Shown here: positions 1,906 through 29,697 of the stretch, in pieces
Numbering within the stretch: position 1 is the stretch's first letter
Layout of the letters: each line of letters begins with the position of its first letter
DNA from: Candidatus Saccharimonadota bacterium
Lineage (GTDB): Bacteria; Patescibacteriota; Gracilibacteria; BD1-5; UBA6164
Assembly: GCA_965229705.1 (NCBI GenBank)
Contig: OZ245922.1
Span: 900,001-932,000 of the forward strand
Direction: 5' to 3'
Length of the DNA: 32,000 bases
Program-made: the position numbers and the translations under genes
Notes under the pieces: model-generated
Databases searched by the model: none
Told to the model about the DNA's origin: nothing
What the model saw: only the letters and a program-made list of their open reading frames with translations

Positions 1906-3138
1906 TATTTTTCCTGAAAAGCACAAAGTTCCTTTTTTCTAATATCTTGTTTATTTTGTTCCTTAGCATAATCTGATCAGTCAAAGTTAATTAACTTTAA
2001 AACTATATTATAAATTATAATATAAAAATTATTAAAATTTACTCATAGCATAAAGTGGATGCCTTGACTCGAGTATCCGATGAAGGACGTACAAGTCTGC
2101 GATAAGCTTGGAGAAGCTGACAAGAAGCGTTATTACTCCAAGATTTCCGAATGGGGGAACCTAAGAGAGCCAATCTCTCTTATCCACAAAGTGGATGGAC
2201 ACGTAGTGAACTGAAATATCTCAGTAGCTACGGAAAAGAAATCAAAAGAGATTCCCTGAGTAGTGACGAGCGAAACGGGATCAGCCCAAACCGTGATGTA
2301 TGTATAGGTAGCTTTTGTACGCACGGGGTTGTAGGAATAGTATTCGGGGAGGCTAATAAACCGGATATAGTATATTATAGTTAAGAGAAGCATGATGAAA
2401 CATGTGCCAGAGAGAGTGGAAGCCTCGTATCATAAAACTATTTTATATTGTATGTACTATTTCCTGAGTAGGATCAGGCACGTGGAACCTGGTTTGAATC
2501 TGGGGAGACCACTCTCCAAGGCTAAATAGTACTCGAGATCGATAGTGAACTAGTACCATGAGGGAAAGGTGAAAAGAACCCCGGGAGGGGAGTGAAAGAG
2601 AACCTGAAACTTTATGCTTTTAAAGAGATGGAGCCTACGGGTGACATCGTACTTTTTGTAGAACGGACCAACGAGTTAGTGAGTATGGCAAGGTTAAGAC
2701 AGTTTTAGTCGGAGCCGTAGTGAAAGCGAGCCTGAACAGGGCGTAGAGTCATACTTACTAGACCCGAAACTAGGTGAGCTTCCCATGAGCAGGCTGAAGC
2801 GGTGGTAAAACACCGTGGAGGGCCGAACCATTTGGAGCTGCAAGTCCATTGGATGACTTGTGGGAAGGAGTGAAAAGCTAATCGAACCTAGAGATAGCTG
2901 GTTCTCCGCGAAATAGCTTTAGGGCTAGCGTCGGTTAACTCTTATGGAGGGGTAGAGCTCTGATAGGGCTAGCGGGAGGCAACTCTTAGTAAACCCTGAT
3001 AAACTTCGAATACTCCATAAATTATTCCGGCAGTCAGACAGTGACAGATAAGTGCCATTGTCAAGAGGGAAACAGCCCAGACTACTATCTAAGGCCCCTA
3101 ATTCATAACTCAGTGGAAAAAGATGTGAGATTGCTGAG

Positions 3139-3169
<31 letters not shown>

Positions 3170-3170
3170 T

Positions 3171-3201
<31 letters not shown>

Positions 3202-3962
3202 TAGCGATTTTGCGCTGAAAATTCAACGGGGCTAAGTTATGAGCCGAAGATGTAGAATTATTTATAATTGGTAGCGGAGCGTTCCGTATGTTGATGAAGG
3301 TGAGTGGTGATGCTTGCTGGAGATATCGGAAGTGAAAATGTTGGTATGAGTAACGTAATGAAGATGAAAACTCTTCACACCGGATACCCAAGGTTTCCTA
3401 CGCAACGTCAGTCGACGTAGGGTGAGTCGGTCCTAAGGTGCAACCGAAAGGTGGAGCTGATGGATATCAGGTTAATATTCCTGAACTATGTATATCAGTG
3501 AAGGGGGGACATATCGGGATATAGAAGACTCTCAACGAATTGAGTTACGAAAACAAGTCTGAGAATGTAGGCAAATCCGCATTTTTAAGGACGAGTTTAG
3601 TTAAGGTAATTGTATTTGCTTGCAAATACATGACCCGGCTTCTACTATATTCGGGTATCAAGAAAAGCCTCTAAACTTATGGTATATGTAACCGTACCGA
3701 AAACGAACACTCGTGGGTTAGTGGAGAACACTCAGGTGGACGAGATAACTATGCTTAAGGAACTCGGCAAAACAGCGGTCGTAACTTCGGGATAAGACCT
3801 GCCTAGAGGGTATTTTACACTCTAGGCCGCAGCGAAAGAACTCAGGCGACTGTTTACCAAAAACACAGCTCTCTGCAAACTCGTAAGAGGATGTATAGGG
3901 GGTGATGCCTGCCCAGTGCCAGAAGGTTACGGGGATGTGTGCAAGCACTGAACTTAAGCCCT

Positions 3963-4739
<777 letters not shown>

Positions 4740-5254
4740 AAGTTCCGACCCGCACGAATGGCATAACGGTCTGAGTACTGTCTCAAGCATAGACTCGGTG
4801 AAATTGCAATGTCGGTAAAAATGCCGACTACCTGCAGCAAGACGGAAAGACCCTATGGAGCTTTACTACAGCTTGGTATTGGGTTATGTTTTAAGATGTG
4901 CAGAATAGGTGGGAGACTATGAGATATTACCGCTAGGTGATAAGGAGTCACCTTTGAGATACCACCCTTCTTACAATGTAACCCTCACCCGCAAAGCGGG
5001 GACAGTGCTTGGTGGGTAGTTTAACTGGGGCGGTTGCCTCCTAAAGAGTAACGGAGGCGCGCAATGGTTGACTATCTTCGGATGGAAATCGGAGAGATAG
5101 TGTATTCGCATAAGTCAGCCTGACTGAGAGACCTACAAGTCGATCAGACACGAAAGTGGGCGAAAGTGATCCGGCACTAACGCGTGGAAGTGGTGTCGCT
5201 CAACGGATAAAAGTTACCCTAGGGATAACAGGCTGATCGCGTCCAAGAGTTCAC

Positions 5255-5306
<52 letters not shown>

Positions 5307-5310
5307 GAGA

Positions 5311-5382
<72 letters not shown>

Positions 5383-5780
5383 TGGCCCCTATCTGCTGTA
5401 GGCGTTTAGGAATTTGAGGAGACCTGCTCCTAGTACGAGAGGACCGGAGTGGACGAACCTCTGGTGTATCGGTTGTCTGGTCTACAGGCACTGCCGAGTA
5501 GCTAAGTTCGGAATGGATAACCACTGAAAGCATCTAAGTGGGAAGCCAACTTCAAGATAAGATTCCTCTGGCCTTGAGCCAATAAGACCCCTTGAAGACT
5601 ACAAGGTTGATAGGTTTCAAGTGTAAGAGTAGTGATACTCTCAGCTGAGAAATACTAATAGGTCGAAAGAGTTTTAATATTTTTATGTAATAATTTATAT
5701 GGTGTTTTTTTTGTTAATTAACTTTGATAGGTCAGTTTATGCCTGGTTAAAATACATGTTCTTCTTGTTTAATGCTAGTA

Positions 5781-11392: not shown

Positions 11393-11597
11393 ACTATATG
11401 TTACTGATTATAACGAAACAGATGATAGGAAATGTCGCGAAATTTGCAAGAAAAGTCAGATATTTGAGTGATTTTCAAAAGTTATGAGGTAAGTAAATAA
11501 TCCTCATGTAAGAAGTATTTCAAAGGAGGAAGTTTTTTATTTTTACTTTTTTTATGTATAGTAAGAACAGTTACAACCAATTCAAACCATACACTAA

Positions 11598-12380
11598 ATG
11601 CCAAATTTTAATGACTTAGATTTGAAAAAATGGAAGAATATCGACCTAGATATGAATAGTCTATGGGTAATATCAGAGAGGAAAAAAGGATGAAAACACA
11701 ATAATTTTTATCATTGAAATTTTATTCCTCAAATTCCTGAACACTTCATAAAAAGGTATACAAAAAAATGAGGTTGGGTATTAGATCCATTTTTATGAAG
11801 CGCAACTACTGCTATAGAATGTGAAGAATTATGAAGAAATGTTATTTGAATAGATATTCAAAAAGAATTAGTAGATAGAGCAAAAAAATTAATAGATTCT
11901 AAAAAAATACATGCTCATTTTTGAGTATGAGATAGTTCCTCAAAAGAAACAAGACATGATATTGAGAAAATATTAAAGCATAGGAAGCTAGATGGTGTTG
12001 ATTTAGCTTTACTTCATCCTCCTTATGCTGATATAATAAGATTTACAGATAAGAAGGAGGATCTTTCAAATAGTGGTAGTATTGAAAACTTTTTACTGGA
12101 TTTTTGAAAAGTTTTAAAAAATACATATAAACTTTTAAAAAATAAATGATATATGGTTATAGTTATGTGAGATAAATATGAGAATTCTGAATGGATACCA
12201 CTATGATTTATGTGCATGGCTGAGGCTCAAAAAGTATGATTTAAATTAAAATGAGTAATTGTTAAAAATATGGAGTGAAATAGATGAAAGGCAGGAAGTT
12301 GATGAATTTGGAAGTATAGAGCATTAAATAGTGATTACTATTTATTTAAACATGAGTATATTTTAGTTTTTAAAAAGTAA
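11598..12380 (+). CDS. DNA methyltransferase (N4-C/N6-A family, motif I before motif IV), 260 aa, 18 UGA-Gly codons
   Basis: Frame checked codon by codon. YHGNFIPQIPEHFIKRYTKKGGWVLDPFLGSATTAIECEELGRNVIGIDI matches the HxAxFPxxL...VLDPFxGSGTT...GIEI signature of N4/N6 DNA methylases. It is followed by LALLHPPYADII, a (D/N/S)PPY-type motif IV with an unusual His. Confidence 0.75.
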
Positions 12381-12402
12381 AGTAATTAACCTAGTATTAA
12401 GC

Positions 12403-13074
12403 ATGAATCAGAATCCATTTAAAAAATGATCAAAGGCTTACGATGACTTCCAGACAATGAGTGATTTATTATGGCATTGTTCTAAGTGTGAGCTAAAATC
12501 AGGTCAAGCAAAAACTTGGCAAGTTTGGAAGGATGAGAAGGGAATACAACTATGACAGGATGATAATTGAAATTATTATAATATTAAGTTATGTGAGAAT
12601 TGTTGAGTTAAAACTCATCATAGGAAGATCATTTCAACACAAATCTTAAAAGCTCTAAAACCTAGATCTTGAATTTCTACTAAGGTTGCTAAAAAGGTTA
12701 AAGATCTTTATAAAAATCAGGAAGCATTTTTTTTGAGATATTTTTCTCCAAATCAGTTAGAAGTTGATCATAAATTTCCTCAAATTAGATGGAACAGTAT
12801 AGAAAATAATAATAATGATTTATCTGATGAAGAACTTATGTGAAAGTTTATACTATTATCTAGATCGAATAACTTATGGAAGTCTAGACAATGTGAAAAG
12901 TGTTATAAAACAGGAAAAAGGTGAAACTTTCCTTGAATTTATTTTTGGTGGAAGTGAAATAATTTGTGGGATAATGAGATTAATAAATATGATGAAAAAG
13001 GATGTATATGATGTTTCTGGCATGATCCATATAAATGGAGAAAAGAACTTAATAATAAAATAAATAATTCATAA
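12403..13074 (+). CDS. Candidate HNH (beta-beta-alpha-Me) restriction endonuclease with two Cys4 zinc sites, 223 aa
   Basis: Frame checked codon by codon: no TAA or TAG, 10 TGA. WHCSKCEL...LCENCG (CxxC...CxxC), LEVDHKFPQIRWN...LLSRSNNLWKSRQCEKCYKTGKRG...GCIGCFWHDPYKW (DH...N...N core plus CxxC...CxxC). Lies between two DNA methyltransferase genes. Confidence 0.6.
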
Positions 13075-13105
13075 AATATTTTGAAAAAGTTCATAAAATA
13101 TTTGA
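13067..13105. promoter_or_regulatory. Tandem imperfect palindromes; candidate operator (C-box-like) upstream of the HTH gene
   Basis: attcataaaatattttga (13067-13084) and gttcataaaatatttga (13089-13105). The two copies are 22 bp apart. Each has a TCA-N9/10-TGA outline around an AAAATATTT(T) core. They span the last codons of the nuclease gene and the 53-nt gap before the HTH gene. Confidence 0.4.
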
Positions 13106-13127
13106 TTTTTAATTTAAAATTATCACA

Positions 13128-13331
13128 ATGTCTAAGCTAGATAAGAATTTAATAAAAAAACTTATGTTACATAAAGATATAAATACTCTTTGAGAACTTG
13201 CCAAAGCTTTAAATATCTCTAAAAGCCAACTCTCAAATTTACTCTCTAATAAGTTTAATCCTATAAAGAGTAACATTCAGGAAATTGCTGATTTTTTTCA
13301 GGTTGATCCAATTGATTTACTAAAAAAATAA
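13128..13331 (+). CDS. XRE-family helix-turn-helix protein (R-M controller-like), 67 aa
   Basis: MSKLDKNLIKKLMLHKDINTLGELAKALNISKSQLSNLLSNKFNPIKSNIQEIADFFQVDPIDLLKK. Shows the typical HTH_3 pattern (ELAxxxxISxSxLSxxxxxK..P....L.xIAxxLxV). Its stop is 2 nt before the next methyltransferase ATG. Confidence 0.8.
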
Positions 13332-13333
13332 AT

Positions 13334-14401
13334 ATGAACTATATTTGATCAAAAAAATCCTTATTAGAATTTATAGAAAGTTCTATAGCAAAAGTGGTGA
13401 AAGAGAAAGATTATAAATTTTCTGATCTTTTTGCTGGTACTTGAATAGTATGAAGATATTTTAAAGAAAAATGACATAGCGTTATAGCTAATGACTTACA
13501 GTATTATAGCTATGTGATAAATAAAAACTATATAGAAAATCACAAACCCTTAGAGTTTAAAGGTTTATTTGATATTATTGAGTGATTAAAAGATACTGAA
13601 ATACTAGAAAGAAATAATTTAGTACTAAATTATTTAGATTTATTAAAATGAAAAAAGGGATTTATTTATAAAAACTATTCTATTTGATGAACTAAATGAC
13701 AAGAACATGAAAGAATGTATTTCAGTGATGAAAATGCAATGAAGTGTGATGCTATTAGAACGCAAATAGAAAATTGGAAAAAATTAAAATCAATAGATGA
13801 AAATGAATACTATTTTTTACTAGCTAGCTTATTAGAAAATATAGATAAAGTAGCAAACACGGCTTCCGTTTATGGAGCTTTTTTAAAGAAATTAAAAAGG
13901 TCTGCACAAGCTTTAATGAGTTTAAAACCAGCTAATTTCTTCTTAAATGATCATGAACATCTAGTTTATAATTCTGATGTAAATGAGTTAGTAAAAAACA
14001 CATCTCATGATGTTGTATATTTAGATCCTCCATACAATGAAAGGCAGTATAGTGCAAACTATCATTTACTTGAAACAATTGCAAAATACGATAATCCTCA
14101 AATAAAGTGAAAAACTTGAATAAGAGATTATAAGGAACAAAAATCACTATATTGTAAAAAAGTAGAAGTAAAAAAATCATTTAGAGATTTAATTCAAAAT
14201 ATAGATGCTAAGTATGTGTTTTTAAGTTATAACTGCGAGGGGCTAATGAGTTTTGACGACATTAAGAAGATCATGTCAGAAAGATGAAAATATTGAGTAT
14301 TTACAAAAAAGTACAGAAGGTTTAAAGCCGATAAAACAGAATCAAGAAGCCATAAGAAAGATAGTGTAATCGAGTATTTGCATTATATTATTATCAGCTA
14401 A
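13334..14401 (+). CDS. Dam-family (D12 class, alpha) N6-adenine DNA methyltransferase, 355 aa, 13 UGA-Gly codons
   Basis: Frame checked codon by codon. MNYIGSKKSLLEFIE (YxGxK), DLFAGTGIVG (motif I), VVYLDPPYNERQYSANYH (DPPY motif IV), and the C-terminal YVFLSYNCEGLMS typical of this family. Confidence 0.85.
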
Positions 14402-14418
14402 TCTTATGTTAGCCTCAA

Positions 14419-14450
14419 AATAATCCCCTCTTTTGGAGGGGATTATTTTT
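14419..14450 (+). terminator. Rho-independent terminator ending the R-M island
   Basis: Perfect 12-bp stem aataatcccctc / gaggggattatt, loop ttttg, followed by additional T residues. Confidence 0.8.
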
Positions 14451-14463
14451 GCTAAAAATTCTT

Positions 14464-14491
14464 TTGACAATCAATAATTATTTCATAGAAT
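14464..14491 (+). promoter_or_regulatory. sigma70-type promoter for the ribosomal-protein operon
   Basis: TTGACA (14464-14469), 16-nt spacer, TAGAAT (14486-14491). It would give a leader of about 115 nt before the rplC ATG. Confidence 0.6.
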
Positions 14492-14533
14492 CTCCGAGCT
14501 TTAAAAACTTCCCCTCAAATTAGCGGGAAACTC

Positions 14534-14597
14534 AGAGGTTACGTTAAACTGTTTCATTAAAACTATGGAAATAAGTTTAACCTCTAACTTTATTTTT
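14534..14597 (+). promoter_or_regulatory. Structured 5' leader hairpin plus U-run upstream of rplC (possible attenuator or autoregulatory element)
   Basis: agagg (14534-38) pairs with cctct (14581-85). ttaaact (14544-50) pairs with agtttaa (14574-80). gtttc (14551-55) pairs with ggaaat (14667-region equivalent 14568-72). There is a 5-nt bulge. The stem is followed by aacTTTATTTTTg. Confidence 0.35.
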
Positions 14598-14613
14598 GTA
14601 AGAAAACTCGAAT

Positions 14614-26311: not shown

Positions 26312-26448
26312 AAAAAATATTTAAAAAACAGAGTTCTTTTCTATTATAAAATGAGAAAGCATATTTCCAAATTTTTCATCTTTACTTTGCCCTTCTATTT
26401 CGTAACATAGCTGTGATTTTCACAAAATATTCTTCAAAAAGCAAAAAA

Positions 26449-29400
26449 ATGTACCCTCATCAAAAAATAGAAAAAAAATGGCAAGAGTACTGGAAAGAAC
26501 ACAATACCTTTCAAACACCAAACTTTTCACTCAAACCAAAGTACTATGTACTTGATATGTTTCCCTATCCAAGCGGAGCAGGCCTTCATGTTGGTCATCC
26601 AGAGTGATATACCGCAAATGATATTATTGCGAGATATAAGCACGCAAAAGGCTATAATGTCCTGCATCCTATGGGTTGGGATGCTTTTGGTTTACCTGCA
26701 GAAAACTATGCAATTAAAACGGGAACACACCCGAGTATTACTACTAAAGAGAATATTGCTACTTTTAAGAGACAGATAGAGTCACTGGGGTTTTCATATG
26801 ATTGGGAAAGAGAGATAGATACGACGGATCCTGATTTTTTTCAGTGGACGCAGTGGATATTTCTCAAGCTTTTTGAACATGGCCTTGCCTATGAACAAGA
26901 CATCCCTATTAATTATTGCCCAAGCTGCGCGACAGGCCTGGCAAATGAGGAGGTTTTATGAGACTTTAGTTGTGAACGCTGTGGGGATCAAGTCGTGAAA
27001 AAAAAGATTCGCCAGTGGGTACTCGCTATTACCCAGTACGCTGAAAGACTTCTCCAAGATGTAGATGATCTTGACTGGCCCGAAGGTATCAAGGATATGC
27101 AAAGAAATTGGATAGGAAAATCGGAAGGATGCGAGTTTGAGATGAAAAAAAGAGATAATAAGAATCACTCTATTCGAGTCTATACTACCCGAGTAGATAC
27201 GGTTTTTGGGATGACTTATGCCGTGATTGCTCCTGATCATCCAGATATACAAAACTTTATTAGTGATGAGTATAGGACGGATTGTGAAACCTATATTGAT
27301 AGAGCAAATAAGCAATCAGATCAAAACAGAACTGCAGATGGAAAAGAGAAAACAGGAGTGTTTACGGGAAGCTTTGTACTAAACCCCTACAATGACGAAT
27401 CAGTTCCACTTTGGATAGCAGACTATGTTCTTGGAAACTATGGAACAGGAGCGGTTATGGCAGTTCCAGCTCATGATGTGCGAGACTTTGAGTTTGCGAA
27501 AAAATATGATTTGCCAATAAAACAGAGTATTGAGTCTCAATTTGAGTGGGATTGAGAAAAGGCAACAACTAATTATGGAACTCTCGTAAACTCTTGAGAG
27601 TATAACTGACTTACATCACAGCAAGCAAAAGAACAATTAACAGCTCTTGCGCAGGAAAAATGATTTGGAGCAAAAAAAGTAAACTATAAGCTGAGAGATT
27701 GGCTTTTTTCTCGCCAAAGATACTGGTGAGAGCCGATTCCTCTGATACATATTGAAGAAGAAGATATTGCAAAACTTCCAAGAGAGTTTTCTGAAGATGC
27801 CTGGCTGAAAGATGATATCCTTATGATAGGAGAGGAAAAAATCTCAAAAATCTATAATGGACTCTACACAAAAATCATATGTGATTATGATCTCCCTGTG
27901 AAACTTCCAGAAGTTCAAGAATATAAACCAGCAGGAGATGGAAACTCTCCACTCATCAATGTTCCAGATTTTGTAAATGTTCAAATAGCAAAAAACCTTG
28001 CAGGAAAAAGAGAGACAAACACTATGCCTCAGTGGGGATGATCGTGTTGGTATTACTTGCGTTTTATGGACCCAAAAAACAAAAACGTCTTAGTATGAAA
28101 AAACGTAGAGGAATATTGGGGAAATGTTGACTCATACGTATGAGGAGCAGAACATGCTGTCCTACATTTGCTTTATGCTCGTTTTTGGCACAAATTTCTC
28201 TATGATATAGGAGTAGTATCGACACATGAACCATTTTATAGACTCAGAAATCAGTGAATGATACTGGGTATGAGTTATAAAAATAGTAAGGGAAAGCTGA
28301 TTGCGGGCGATTTTGTTGAAGAGAGGGACGGAAAGTATTTTGATATCGAGACAGGAGATGAGCTCGAAAAAGTTCCTGCAAAGATGAGTAAATCTTTGAA
28401 AAATGTTATCAATCCTGATGATATCGTAAAAGAGTATGGGGCCGATACTCTTCGCATGTATGAGATGTATATGGCAGATTTTAAAGATGCTGCGCCGTGG
28501 GATACCAGCTCTATAGTTGGGCTACGAAGGTTTCTGGATAAGGTGTATGTTCTCTTTGTTGAAGGAAAAGAAAAGTTTGCCAGCTCAGACGAAGAAGCAT
28601 TAAAAGTCCTTCATAAAGCCATTAAAAAAATAGGAGAAGATATTGAGAACTATAAGTTTAATACGGCCATAGCCCAGCTCATGATTCTTATGAATACGGG
28701 TATACCAAAGTCTTGAGAATGACAGCGTCAGTGGAAAAAATCATTTTTGATACTTCTGCATCCATTTGCTCCTCATATGGCAGAAGAATGCTGGAAAAAA
28801 CTCAAAGAGAGTGAAAAATGAAAGAATACAGAATACAAGAAAGTATATTTTGCTACGAGCAATGCAGGAAAAATAGAGAGAGCACAAAAGTGTCTCAAGG
28901 TTCTTGATGAAAGTGTACAACTACTCTCATATCCTGATGTGCAGAAAGTTGAAGAAACATGAAACACTCCTCTTGAATGCGCTTTGCAAAAACTCGAACC
29001 ATATATATGAAAAGGTATCGAAGTTCCAGTTATTTCTGCAGATACGGCAGTATATTTTGAGTGACAAGACTTTGATCCAACTCATGTGAGACGCATAGTA
29101 CTTGAGAGTATATGAAAATCAGAAGACGATCTCAGCGCGGAAGAAATGGCAAGAGAGATGGTAGAGTTTTATAAGAAAAAAGCACAAGATGCAGGCGGAG
29201 AGCTTGAATTTTATTATCAAGATGCTTTTGCAGTACTCTTTCCAAATGGGGAGATAAAAAATTATGCCTACAATAGATACTACAAGCTGACAGATCAGCA
29301 TGAGGGGGATATACATATCCATGTTCCCATGAGATGACTGTATTATTCTTGTATTACAGGAAAAAGAGCAGCAGAAACAAGTGAAGATGATTACCTTAAA

Positions 29401-29697
29401 GAGTTTGCGTCTCAAGTAGATGCTTTTAGAGAACTTTTTGGCTATGAGAGAGAATCTATATTTTTTGAGTCTTGGCCAGAGTATGATGAACAAATTATTA
29501 TAGATAATGAGCTAACTATAGGAGTGCAAGTTTTGTGAAAGCTTCGAGGTGAGATACAGATATCAAAAAACGAAGACCAGTCTGCTGTTCTGGAAAAAGC
29601 AAAAAATAATGAAAATGTTGCGAAATGGCTTGAGGAAAAACAAATCATAAAAGAGATTTATGTTCCAGGCAAGATTGTGAATATTGTTGTGAAGTAA
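26449..29697 (+). CDS. leuS: Leucyl-tRNA synthetase with an in-frame Ham1/ITPase-like domain of about 220 aa inserted before the C-terminal domain (1082 aa, about 20 UGA-Gly)
   Basis: [15 protein letters not shown]..., LHVGHPEGYTAND (HIGH), TTRVDTVFG and [12 protein letters not shown] (CP1 editing), [58 protein letters not shown], and C-terminal VQVLGKLRGEI...[14 protein letters not shown] checked codon by codon from 28711 to 29697 that no TAA or TAG interrupts the frame. Start ATG 26449 is preferred to the GTG at 26413. Confidence 0.93.

What the first reader, a model, noticed from the sequence alone, without database searches (positions are those of the whole stretch)
11598..14401. Recoded four-gene restriction-modification island (MTase, HNH nuclease, HTH, Dam-like MTase) at the head of the ribosomal-protein operon
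Between divergent pheS and rplC lies a co-directional block with gaps of 2 to 53 nt. It is closed by a perfect terminator at 14419-14450. Its genes are:
- an N4/N6-family DNA methyltransferase (260 aa)
- a 223-aa protein with a DH...N...N HNH-type core flanked by four CxxC pairs, the layout of zinc-dependent beta-beta-alpha-Me restriction enzymes
- a 67-aa XRE HTH protein
- a Dam-class DPPY methyltransferase (355 aa)

Two methyltransferases of different classes with one nuclease is the pattern of type IIS or other asymmetric-site systems, where each methyltransferase protects one strand. The specificity cannot be read from the sequence.

All four genes are dense in UGA-Gly (18, 10, 1 and 13 codons), including motif I glycines, so the system is not expressible in standard-code hosts. 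The block looks more AT-rich than its neighbours by eye; I did not compute this. It occupies the position where rpsJ normally precedes rplC.
Basis: partly seen in the sequence, partly recalled or inferred. Interest (0 to 1): 0.7.

Follow-up and report, generated by a model that had tools for sequence, protein, structure and literature searches.

The report
Recoded CATG-type restriction-modification cassette
This is a real but fairly ordinary bacterial restriction-modification gene cassette, probably targeting CATG and common across many phyla; here it sits in a bacterium that reads UGA as glycine and was evidently picked up from another bacterium with the same unusual code.

Summary
Four co-directional genes lie at the stated coordinates with the stated in-frame TGA counts (18, 10, 1, 13), a perfect terminator, and 26% GC against 35% in the flanks.

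The block is one copy of a widespread cassette, M1-R-C-M2, found in at least ten phyla in several gene orders. Its two methyltransferases are full-length orthologues (46% and 48% identity) of those in Campylobacter jejuni "cluster X". Published PacBio methylomes of that cluster show one attributable motif, C(m6A)TG, assigned to the D12 enzyme.

Among 52 well-flanked loci, 6 keep an intact nuclease with M2 alone and none with M1 alone. This argues against a type IIS system with one methyltransferase per strand. It favours a palindromic, NlaIII/IceA1-like CATG system with an accessory second methyltransferase.

The HTH gene is a controller protein. Two conserved boxes 22 nt apart sit upstream of it, and they co-occur with the gene across phyla (p = 6.5e-14).

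The nuclease joins an N-terminal zinc ribbon to an IceA1/NlaIII-like HNH domain.

TGA supplies 75% of the island's glycine codons against 26% in host genes, which matches low-GC code-25 relatives. So the cassette moved laterally within the recoded lineage. It is a new member of a known kind.

The parts
11598..12380 (+). M1: 260-aa accessory DNA methyltransferase. It has PF01555-type sequence but a linear motif order, with motif I (DPFLGS) ahead of motif IV (LHPPY). 18 TGA-Gly codons.
   Evidence: Pfam PF01555, E 1.8e-30. PADLOC MTase_II PDLC03351, E 2e-89. 4066 homologues. LHPPY and motif I are invariant, and TGA falls on conserved Gly. Motif I aligns to the C-terminal part and motif IV to the N-terminal part of the beta-class enzyme 2zie.
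12403..13074 (+). R: 223-aa restriction endonuclease. Residues ~16-76 form an N-terminal CxxC...CxxC zinc ribbon. Residues ~79-221 form an IceA1/NlaIII-like HNH (His-Me finger) domain with a second CxxC...CxxC site. 10 TGA-Gly codons.
   Evidence: Pfam ICEA 40.3 bits, on residues 79-221 only. PADLOC REase_II PDLC03537, E 1e-28, full length. Invariant Cys pairs and D122-H123...N157. 27% identity to the C. jejuni IceA1-type nuclease over R 82-215, and 28% to a separate 73-aa zinc-ribbon protein over R 16-76. Weak Foldseek hits are nearly all HNH domains.
13068..13082 (+). Distal controller-protein box (TTCATAAAATATTTT). It overlaps the R stop codon.
   Evidence: One mismatch to the consensus TT[AC]ATAAAATA[CT]TTG. 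It lies exactly 22 nt upstream of the proximal box, as in all 21 loci that have two boxes.
13090..13104 (+). Proximal controller-protein box (TTCATAAAATATTTG), 38 nt upstream of the C start codon.
   Evidence: Perfect match. Present in 55 of 57 R-C intergenic regions across phyla. Present in 53 of 60 cassettes with a C gene against 1 of 25 without (Fisher p 6.5e-14), with only 5 hits in 1.19 Mb outside the cassettes.
13128..13331 (+). C: 67-aa XRE-type HTH controller protein, in an operon with M2 (2-nt gap).
   Evidence: HTH_26 E 1.9e-9 and HTH_3 E 1.3e-7. It also matches the N-terminal HTH of a PADLOC MTase model. It is conserved next to M2 in most cassettes. N-terminal residues are conserved at the protein level.
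13334..14401 (+). M2: 355-aa D12-class (alpha) N6-adenine DNA methyltransferase with motif IV DPPY. Predicted to make C(m6A)TG and to be the essential protecting enzyme. 13 TGA-Gly codons.
   Evidence: PF02086 174.9 bits. PADLOC PDLC03257, E 7e-117. 47.6% identical over its full length to the C. jejuni cluster X D12 enzyme, which REBASE and PacBio assign to CATG (PMC8743553). It is retained in every single-MTase variant that has an intact R.
14417..14456 (+). Intrinsic terminator closing the cassette; it belongs to the island side of the right junction.
   Evidence: 14-nt arms 100% complementary. Called by the terminator scan. Homology with the island-free strain L006 begins at 14428, inside the hairpin's first arm, and the hairpin is not conserved in L006; the rplC-operon promoter TTGACA-16-TAGAAT at 14464-14491 is shared with L006.
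11393..11597 (.). Intergenic region between the pheS start and the M1 start. It is not shared with the L001 copy, so it is local sequence and must hold the promoters of pheS and of M1-R. No promoter is established.
   Evidence: L001 homology starts at 11596, 2 nt before the M1 ATG. The L001 upstream sequence is unrelated. Only weak promoter-like matches were found. No flanking direct or inverted repeats.

Best explanation
The block is a laterally acquired Type II restriction-modification cassette of a widespread family with the layout M1-R-C-M2.

Shown:
- All four genes are intact, with their catalytic motifs.
- R, M1 and M2 travel together in many phyla, in several gene orders.
- The HTH gene is accompanied by two conserved boxes 22 nt apart just upstream of it.
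- The cassette's GC content and its 75% use of TGA for glycine match low-GC UGA=Gly relatives and not the present host.
- The same cassette lies at other sites in relatives.

Inferred mechanism:
- M2, a D12-class adenine methyltransferase, methylates both strands of the palindrome CATG (giving C-m6A-TG) and is the enzyme that protects the chromosome.
- R is a zinc-dependent HNH nuclease whose catalytic half is related to IceA1/NlaIII. It cuts unmethylated CATG in incoming DNA.
- C binds the two boxes and autoregulates the C-M2 operon. M2 would then be made quickly in a new host and held in check afterwards.
- M1, co-transcribed ahead of R, is an accessory second methyltransferase acting on the same site. 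It may act on a substrate form that M2 handles poorly, such as single-stranded or hemimethylated DNA, as DpnA does in the DpnII system. It is not a partner that protects the opposite strand.
- The M1...M2 pair behaves as a conserved methylation module into which different nucleases have been slotted.
For: Anatomy and motifs.

Linkage: in 80 reference-genome loci the gene orders are M1-R-C-M2 (47), M2-R-M1 (13), R-M1-M2 (5) and R-C-M1-M2 (3).

M2 essential, M1 dispensable: of 52 loci with at least 3.5 kb on both sides of R, 45 have both MTases, 6 have M2 only with an intact R (two still show M1 remnants), and 0 have M1 only.

Link to experiment:
- L088 (C. jejuni CP010482) has flgE-queF-M1type-IceA1type R-73 aa-379 aa-D12 M2. 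This matches the published ST-677 / HS:19 'cluster X' (PMC4202330; PMC8743553).
- The window's M1 and M2 are 46% and 47.6% identical to its MTases over their full length.
- PacBio methylomes of two HS:19 strains show only RAATTY, C(m6A)TG (>99% methylated) and AGTN6RTTG. CATG is assigned to the D12 enzyme.
- L031's M2 is 80% identical to the cluster X enzyme yet sits beside a window-type R.
- H. typhlonius, which has an M2 orthologue, also carries m6A at CATG.

Interchangeable nucleases: the M1/M2 pair occurs with the window-type R, with the IceA1-type (Pfam ICEA 406.8 bits), and with an unclassified 299-aa protein.

Controller.

Lateral origin within the code-25 clade:
- GC is 26.1% in the cassette against 35.3% in the flanks.
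- TGA supplies 42 of 56 Gly codons in the island against 98 of 382 in host genes, p 1.4e-12.
- Donor-type genomes use TGA for 64% and 86% of Gly codons.
- L001 carries a 91.6%-identical copy at another locus, in a 25.8% GC genome.
- L006 is 99.2% identical from window position 14428 onwards and unrelated upstream of it.
- M1, M2 and C of recoded cassettes each form an exclusive split with 40/40 bootstraps.
Against: - Specificity is inferred by orthology at 46-48% identity, not measured.
- The window's nuclease is only distantly related to the proven CATG nucleases: 27% identity over the HNH half and a different N-terminal domain.
- The window shows no CATG depletion (O/E 0.89). The pooled depletion in carriers (0.54) is no stronger than for GGCC or GATC.
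- The role of M1 is unknown. Its best fold match is a tRNA amino-methyltransferase, and the C. jejuni methylomes show no motif for it. That is equally compatible with M1 being inactive on duplex DNA.
- C lies upstream of M2 rather than of R, which is not the classical controller arrangement. The promoter could not be placed: the -10-like element abuts the C start codon.
- Intact R genes in M2-only loci might be inactive, or protected by an M1 elsewhere in those genomes.
- The clustering of recoded sequences could be inflated by shared low-GC amino-acid composition.
Confidence: 0.68

Rival explanations
1. One reading: a type IIS or otherwise asymmetric-site system in which M1 and M2 each methylate one strand, and both are needed for protection.
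For: Two methyltransferases of different classes with one small HNH nuclease is the layout of several type IIS systems, such as MboII, MnlI and HphI (from general knowledge; HNH membership is listed in PMC2441816). M1 and M2 co-occur in 45 of 52 well-flanked loci.
Against: - Six loci keep an intact R with M2 alone, and none keep R with M1 alone.
- The orthologous C. jejuni cluster gives one palindromic motif, CATG, assigned to the D12 enzyme, and no extra asymmetric motif.
- IceA1-HpyIM in H. pylori is described in the literature as one nuclease gene with one CATG methyltransferase gene. That NlaIII is likewise a one-methyltransferase CATG system is from memory.
Confidence: 0.08
2. The architecture and logic are as in the best explanation, but the window's system recognises a different sequence from CATG, because its nuclease subfamily and methyltransferases have diverged in specificity.
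For: - R shares only the HNH half with IceA1/NlaIII, and its N-terminal domain is different.
- M2 is 48% identical to the proven CATG enzyme, a level at which specificity is usually but not always kept.
- There is no CATG avoidance in the window.
Against: - L031 pairs a window-type R with an M2 that is 80% identical to the CATG enzyme.
- M1 and M2 orthology is full-length and syntenic across all carriers.
- The lack of avoidance is expected for a recently acquired island.
Confidence: 0.17
3. M1 is not a protective DNA methyltransferase at all. It would be an RNA or other amino-methyltransferase, or an enzyme that is silent or purely regulatory, that merely hitch-hikes with the cassette.
For: - Some sources label homologues 'TRM11 family' or 'RsmD family'.
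- The best fold match is archaeal Trm11.
- No separate methylation motif appears in C. jejuni strains carrying the orthologue.
- M1 is dispensable.
Against: - Sequence profiles place it with DNA N6/N4 methyltransferases (PF01555, E 1.8e-30; PADLOC type II MTase, E 2e-89).
- It stays linked to a nuclease and M2 across phyla and across three nuclease types. This is hard to explain for a housekeeping RNA enzyme.
Confidence: 0.12
4. The cassette is present but not functional in this host: a decaying passenger.
For: It looks recently acquired. Its composition has not ameliorated and the host shows no CATG avoidance. No promoter for M1-R could be identified.
Against: All four ORFs are full-length with every invariant catalytic and zinc-binding residue retained. 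The operator boxes are intact. The terminator is perfect.
Confidence: 0.08

Closest known systems
C. jejuni ST-677 / HS:19 'IceA1/NlaIII gene cluster' (cluster X, CjjRM3420_1717-1722; cjj5070_14910c-14950c)
   Same: The same two methyltransferases flank the nuclease gene in the same order. The N6_N4-type M1 and the D12 M2 are 46% and 48% identical over their full length. The cluster is accessory and inserted into a housekeeping region. Methylome data give C(m6A)TG (PMC8743553).
   Different: Its nuclease is a true IceA1/NlaIII family member (ICEA 406.8 bits) with a different N-terminal domain. A separate 73-aa zinc-ribbon protein and a 379-aa protein take the place of the HTH controller. It uses the standard genetic code.
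NlaIII (N. lactamica) and IceA1-HpyIM (H. pylori) CATG systems
   Same: An HNH (His-Me finger) nuclease of the PF05315 clade (PMC5714182) is paired with a D12-class CATG adenine methyltransferase. The window's R matches the family's catalytic domain above Pfam's threshold.
   Different: - Those systems are described with one methyltransferase and no controller gene.
- The window's R matches only profile positions 68-206 of 218 and carries a zinc-ribbon N-terminal domain.
- CATG specificity has not been demonstrated for the window's R subfamily.
DpnII / MboI-type systems (two methyltransferases for one palindromic site)
   Same: One nuclease is paired with a D12/Dam-class duplex methyltransferase and a second PF01555-type methyltransferase for a 4-bp palindrome. 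This is a precedent for a non-type-IIS system with two methyltransferases (from established knowledge of DpnM/DpnA; not tested here).
   Different: - The site (GATC) and the nuclease fold are different.
- DpnA is a classical beta-class enzyme, whereas M1 has a linear motif order.
- A single-strand role for M1 is only a hypothesis.
Controller (C) protein-regulated Type II systems (e.g. PvuII, AhdI, Esp1396I; Kpn2I for control of M)
   Same: A small XRE-type HTH protein is encoded inside the cassette. A pair of conserved operator boxes lies two helical turns apart just upstream of its own gene.
   Different: - Here C precedes M2, not R, so it would control the methyltransferase operon rather than delay the nuclease.
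- The box sequence (TT[AC]ATAAAATA[CT]TTG) is AT-rich and without clear dyad symmetry. It is unlike the GACT...AGTC-type C-boxes, which I recall from memory.
- C is absent from about 30% of cassettes.

Membership tests
Type II restriction-modification system | Adjacent, separately encoded endonuclease and DNA methyltransferase genes | tested here: met
   R lies between M1 and M2 with gaps of 2 to 53 nt. PADLOC classifies them as REase_II and MTase_II. The linkage is conserved in 80 loci.
Type II restriction-modification system | The methyltransferase protects the nuclease's own recognition site, and the nuclease cuts unmodified sites | not testable with these tools
   This needs enzymology or a methylome. 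Only orthology to a system with a measured CATG methylome is available.
HNH / His-Me finger nucleases | A beta-beta-alpha-metal motif with a catalytic His preceded by Asp, plus downstream Asn residues | tested here: met
   D122-H123 and N157 are invariant, and N137 is at least 90% conserved, in 30 homologues. PF05315 is clade 27 of the His-Me finger superfamily (PMC5714182).
HNH / His-Me finger nucleases | Fold similarity to solved HNH structures | tested here: inconclusive
   Homologue model with pLDDT 82. The best Foldseek E-value is 0.1, but the weak hits are almost all HNH domains: TagI, Cas9 HNH, Cap5 and Gme HNH.
IceA1/NlaIII family (Pfam PF05315 ICEA) | Profile match above the gathering score | tested here: met
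   40.3 bits against a cutoff of 24.
IceA1/NlaIII family (Pfam PF05315 ICEA) | Full-length architecture like IceA1/NlaIII | tested here: not met
   The match covers only R 79-221, profile positions 68-206 of 218. A true member scores 406.8 bits over positions 1-217. R's N-terminal domain resembles a separate zinc-ribbon protein instead.
IceA1/NlaIII family (Pfam PF05315 ICEA) | CATG recognition | not testable with these tools
   Inferred only, from the shared methyltransferases. The site-avoidance test was uninformative.
D12-class (alpha) N6-adenine DNA methyltransferases | PF02086 profile, motif I FxGxG near the N-terminus and motif IV DPPY | tested here: met
   174.9 bits over residues 3-306. 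FAGTGIVG and YLDPPYN are visible in the translation.
Dam (GATC) orthologues | TIGR00571 above its cutoff | tested here: not met
   24.6 bits against a cutoff of 114.85. M2 is D12-class but is not a Dam orthologue.
Type IIS / asymmetric-site systems with one methyltransferase per strand | Both methyltransferases are indispensable and give two strand-specific motifs | tested here: not met
   M2-only variants with an intact R exist (6 of 52), and M1-only variants do not. The orthologous cluster gives a single palindromic motif (PMC8743553). This evidence is indirect, not from the window's organism.
Controller (C) protein systems | A small HTH protein encoded in the cassette, with conserved operator boxes upstream of its own gene | tested here: met
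   HTH_26 / HTH_3. The proximal box is in 55 of 57 loci, and the distal box is exactly 22 nt upstream in 21 loci. Co-occurrence with the C gene gives p 6.5e-14.
Controller (C) protein systems | C is co-transcribed with R and activates it | tested here: not met
   C lies downstream of R and 2 nt upstream of M2. The same holds in the 47 M1-R-C-M2 loci.

The most novel reading that the evidence does not exclude
The UGA=Gly code has created a private pool of defence genes. In this reading the cassette's methyltransferase and controller genes entered the code-25 lineage once. They became densely recoded (about 40 in-frame TGA codons each) and have since been exchanged only among code-25 bacteria, including between coexisting species of different GC content, while the nuclease gene was swapped independently. 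This would be direct gene-level evidence that codon reassignment compartmentalises horizontal transfer of defence systems.
Probability: 0.4. Interest if true: 0.55.

Novelty: new member of a known kind. Interest (0 to 1): 0.3.

Why it matters
On its own this is one more Type II restriction-modification system, and R-M systems in UGA=Gly bacteria have already been catalogued (PMC8080830).

Modest value comes from four by-products:
1. A testable specificity prediction (CATG, m6A) for an uncultivated code-25 bacterium. This would help anyone trying to transform or culture such organisms.
2. Recognition that the M1...M2 pair is a conserved two-methyltransferase module combined with at least three unrelated nucleases. 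The function of M1 is still unexplained, even in Campylobacter.
3. A cross-phylum operator motif for the cassette's controller protein.
4. A clean example of lateral transfer within the recoded lineage that can be read from TGA-Gly usage. This bears on the idea that recoding isolates these bacteria genetically.

Tried and rejected
1. Site avoidance as a read-out of specificity. Pooled over 84 carrier loci, CATG has O/E 0.54, but GGCC (0.32) and GATC (0.47) are lower, and I had no non-carrier controls. In the window CATG is 0.89 and ACGT 0.32. Uninformative.

2. Sequence search of the PDB. Nothing for R or M2, and only motif-level hits for M1.

3. Foldseek. The R model has no significant match. 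The M1 model gives only generic class I methyltransferases.

4. Plasmid and phage collections with R. One weak archaeal hit and no phage hits.

5. Source names of homologue clusters. None were informative.

6. Flanking direct or inverted repeats that would mark a transposon or integration site. None found.

7. A sigma-70 promoter for the C-M2 operon. A TTGnnn-17-TAnaAT arrangement looked convincing, but the -10-like hexamer abuts or overlaps the C start codon, and residues 1-12 of C are conserved as protein. I do not claim it.

8. L031 as the published ST-677 locus. Rejected, because metA and metB are intact there. L088 is the right one.

9. The Xu et al. 2002 IceA1 paper (PMC137426) is not held.

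10. Structure prediction refuses code-25 translations, so homologues were modelled instead.

12. The idea that the island displaced rpsJ. Rejected.
Full report
**Observation**

| Gene | Coordinates | Length | In-frame TGA |
|---|---|---|---|
| M1 | 11598-12380 | 260 aa | 18 |
| R | 12403-13074 | 223 aa | 10 |
| C | 13128-13331 | 67 aa | 1 |
| M2 | 13334-14401 | 355 aa | 13 |

- The block lies between pheS on the minus strand (PF01409, E 2.8e-91) and rplC.
- It ends in a hairpin with 14-nt perfectly complementary arms (14417-14430 and 14436-14449) followed by a T run.
- GC content is 26.1% in the block and 35.3% in the non-rRNA remainder of the window.
- Pfam assigns PF01555 to M1, PF05315 (ICEA) to R, HTH_26/HTH_3 to C and PF02086 (D12 class) to M2. 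PADLOC calls them type II methyltransferases and a type II restriction enzyme.
- That TGA means glycine is shown inside the island itself. In alignments with standard-code homologues, the window's TGA codons fall on invariant or near-invariant Gly columns. In R these are G90, G174, G178, G185 and G203. In M1 they are G32, G40, G67 in motif I, G84, G203 and G227.
- The four CxxC pairs and the D122-H123...N157 core of R are invariant.

**A widespread cassette, not a one-off**

R has 451 detectable homologues, all of about 220 aa; the 120 best listed are 57-88% identical. M1 has more than 4000. A scan of species-representative genomes returned 80 loci. They come from Saccharibacteria, Paceibacterota, Peregrinibacteria, Gracilibacteria, Campylobacterota, Acidobacteriota, Clostridia, Bacteroidota, Elusimicrobia, Alphaproteobacteria and others.

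tblastn of the four window proteins against these loci shows that R, M1 and M2 travel together in several gene orders. C is optional.

| Gene order | Loci |
|---|---|
| M1-R-C-M2 | 47 |
| M2-R-M1 | 13 |
| R-M1-M2 | 5 |
| R-C-M1-M2 | 3 |

**Specificity and the two methyltransferases**

[quoted passage not shown] The same cluster appears as "cluster X" in HS:19/ST-22 strains (PMC8743553). I recovered this locus as L088. Its layout is flgE, queF, N6_N4 methyltransferase, ICEA nuclease, a 73-aa protein, a 379-aa protein, then the D12 methyltransferase.

- The window's M1 and M2 are 46% and 47.6% identical to its two methyltransferases over their full length.
- PacBio methylomes of two HS:19 strains show only three motifs: RAATTY, C(m6A)TG (over 99% methylated) and AGTN6RTTG.
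- The authors assign CATG to the D12 enzyme through REBASE, and RAATTY to a Cj0208 homologue elsewhere in the genome. REBASE could not assign AGTN6RTTG to a gene.
- The M1-type enzyme therefore adds no recognisable asymmetric motif.
- H. typhlonius, which has an M2 orthologue, also has m6A at CATG (PMC4705304).

Natural variation gives independent support. Among 52 loci with at least 3.5 kb on both sides of R:

| MTases present | Loci |
|---|---|
| M1 and M2 | 45 |
| M2 only, intact R | 6 (two still show decayed M1 remnants) |
| M1 only | 0 |
| Neither | 1 |

M2 is thus sufficient and M1 dispensable. That is the opposite of what a one-methyltransferase-per-strand system predicts. In the closest studied relative, that is what is seen.

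**The nuclease**

The window's R is not a straightforward IceA1/NlaIII orthologue.

- It scores 40.3 bits against the ICEA profile, on residues 79-221 only. The C. jejuni cluster X nuclease scores 406.8 bits end to end.
- BLASTP gives 27% identity between the two over the HNH half. The window R's residues 16-76, the first CxxC...CxxC unit, instead resemble the separate 73-aa zinc-ribbon protein of cluster X (28% identity, E 3.6e-6).
- PADLOC shows the reverse pattern. It has a full-length model for the window type (PDLC03537, E 1e-28) and none for the IceA1 type.
- No sequence relative is in the PDB. A homologue model (pLDDT 82) finds no significant structural neighbour, although the weak hits are nearly all HNH domains.

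Because the C. jejuni isolate L031 combines a window-type R with an M2 that is 80% identical to the CATG enzyme, the two nuclease types most likely recognise the same site. This is inference.

The M1...M2 pair also brackets a third, unclassified 299-aa protein in L091-L094. The two methyltransferases therefore look like a conserved module with exchangeable nucleases.

**The HTH gene is a controller protein**

The R-C intergenic regions of distant phyla share the motif TT[AC]ATAAAATA[CT]TTG.

- The proximal copy is present in 55 of 57 loci. A distal copy lies exactly 22 nt upstream in all 21 loci that have two copies.
- The motif occurs in 53 of 60 cassettes with a C gene and in 1 of 25 without (p 6.5e-14). 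Outside the cassettes there are only 5 hits in 1.19 Mb.
- In the window the boxes are at 13068-13082 and 13090-13104. Nothing as good occurs elsewhere in the 32 kb.
- C starts at a fixed 36-45 nt after the proximal box.
- A TTGnnn-17-TAnaAT arrangement is present, but its -10-like element abuts the start codon, so I leave the promoter unassigned.
- Because C precedes M2 (2-nt gap) rather than R, it most likely autoregulates the C-M2 operon. This is inferred.

**Origin**

- A contig from another metagenome (L006) is 99.2% identical to the window from position 14428 onwards. That point lies inside the terminator hairpin's first arm, and the hairpin is not conserved in L006. Upstream of it L006 has an unrelated 136-aa ORF.
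- In the same sample, L001 carries a 91.6%-identical copy of the whole cassette. The homology runs from 2 nt before the M1 start to 15 nt before the M2 stop. L001 places it between ybeY/T4SS-like genes and a tRNA gene plus rnr.
- L001's flanks are 25.8% GC, so it is a different, lower-GC organism in which the cassette's composition is native.
- In the window, TGA encodes 75% of the island's glycines (42 of 56) against 26% in host genes (98 of 382), p 1.4e-12. The flanking genes of L001 and L002 use TGA for 64% and 86% of their glycines.
- Five cassettes are recoded, with 38-43 in-frame TGA codons each, about 90% of them aligned to Gly.
- Their M1, M2 and C sequences each form an exclusive split in neighbour-joining trees, with 40/40 bootstraps. 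R does not, at 0-1/40.
- The window's M1 is closest to L002, whereas its R and M2 are closest to L001. The cassette is therefore mosaic.

Together this indicates lateral transfer from a low-GC UGA=Gly donor and circulation of the cassette within the recoded lineage. Shared amino-acid composition could inflate that clustering.

No flanking repeats mark the insertion. No rpsJ is present in the window or upstream of rplC in L006, so the island did not replace it.

**What remains open**

- Specificity is not measured.
- M1's function is unknown. Its motif IV is an invariant, unusual LHPPY. Its motif order is linear rather than beta-class. Its fold is generic, with aTrm11 as the top hit.
- A DpnA-like role on single-stranded or hemimethylated DNA is a reasonable hypothesis with no direct support.
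- Site-avoidance tests were uninformative.

**Verdict**

The finding is real, and the R-M reading is correct. The type IIS inference is not supported. The system is a new, recoded member of a known and widespread CATG-type family. R-M systems in UGA=Gly bacteria have been noted before (PMC8080830). Interest is modest.

Noticed in passing
window 2032-5679 (insertion about 4009-4727; ORF 4239-4703): The 23S rRNA gene is about 720 nt longer than the bacterial model. Two sub-threshold group I intron matches (E 6e-5 and 8e-5) flank a 154-aa ORF with a LAGLIDADG-like motif (ITGFVDGEGCF) and 6 in-frame TGA codons. This looks like a recoded intron homing endonuclease.
   Followed up: partly
window 6150-32000: ACGT is the most depleted 4-bp palindrome (O/E 0.32, z -5.9), while CATG is not depleted (0.89). 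This may reflect a different, longer-resident ACGT-specific system elsewhere in this genome.
   Followed up: no
window 26413-29697: The leucyl-tRNA-synthetase-like ORF is 1094 aa, roughly 200 aa longer than usual. By eye the extra segment contains a Ham1/ITPase-like stretch ([13 protein letters not shown]). Not tested.
   Followed up: no
L002 8788-12206; L031 4297-5992: A DUF262/GmrSD-type gene plus a partner gene is inserted between M1 and R in a Gracilibacteria genome and in C. jejuni isolate_W1. Several other loci have a 1.7-kb gap between M1 and R. The cassette interior seems to be a recurrent landing site for other defence genes.
   Followed up: partly
L091-L094 (e.g. L091 5786-6685): The same M1 and M2 flank a 299-aa protein with no convincing Pfam or PADLOC family (only a marginal PADLOC JetA hit, E 0.008, 12.8 bits). 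It is a candidate for an undescribed restriction endonuclease working with the same methylation module.
   Followed up: partly
L088 5639-5860 and 5862-7001: In C. jejuni cluster X, a free-standing 73-aa zinc-ribbon protein is homologous to the N-terminal domain of the window's nuclease. It is followed by a 379-aa protein of unknown function with weak PADLOC PDC-S02 hits. Their role in that CATG system is unexplained.
   Followed up: partly
window 14451-14613; L006 1-735: rpsJ is not upstream of rplC in the window or in the island-free near-identical strain, and it was not found anywhere in the 32 kb. In this lineage the operon starts at rplC, behind a near-consensus TTGACA-16-TAGAAT promoter at 14464-14491.
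   Followed up: partly
L001 10080-10165 and 14252-15888: In the low-GC relative the cassette lies next to a tRNA gene on the opposite strand, a few kb from two transposase genes (DDE_Tnp_1 and Y1_Tnp). This hints at how it moves. No such features flank the window's copy.
   Followed up: no
window 11598-14401 versus L001 and L002: The cassette is mosaic. The window's M1 is closest to the L002 copy (93% aa identity to P0121), but its R and M2 are closest to the L001 copy. This indicates recombination between cassette variants.
   Followed up: partly
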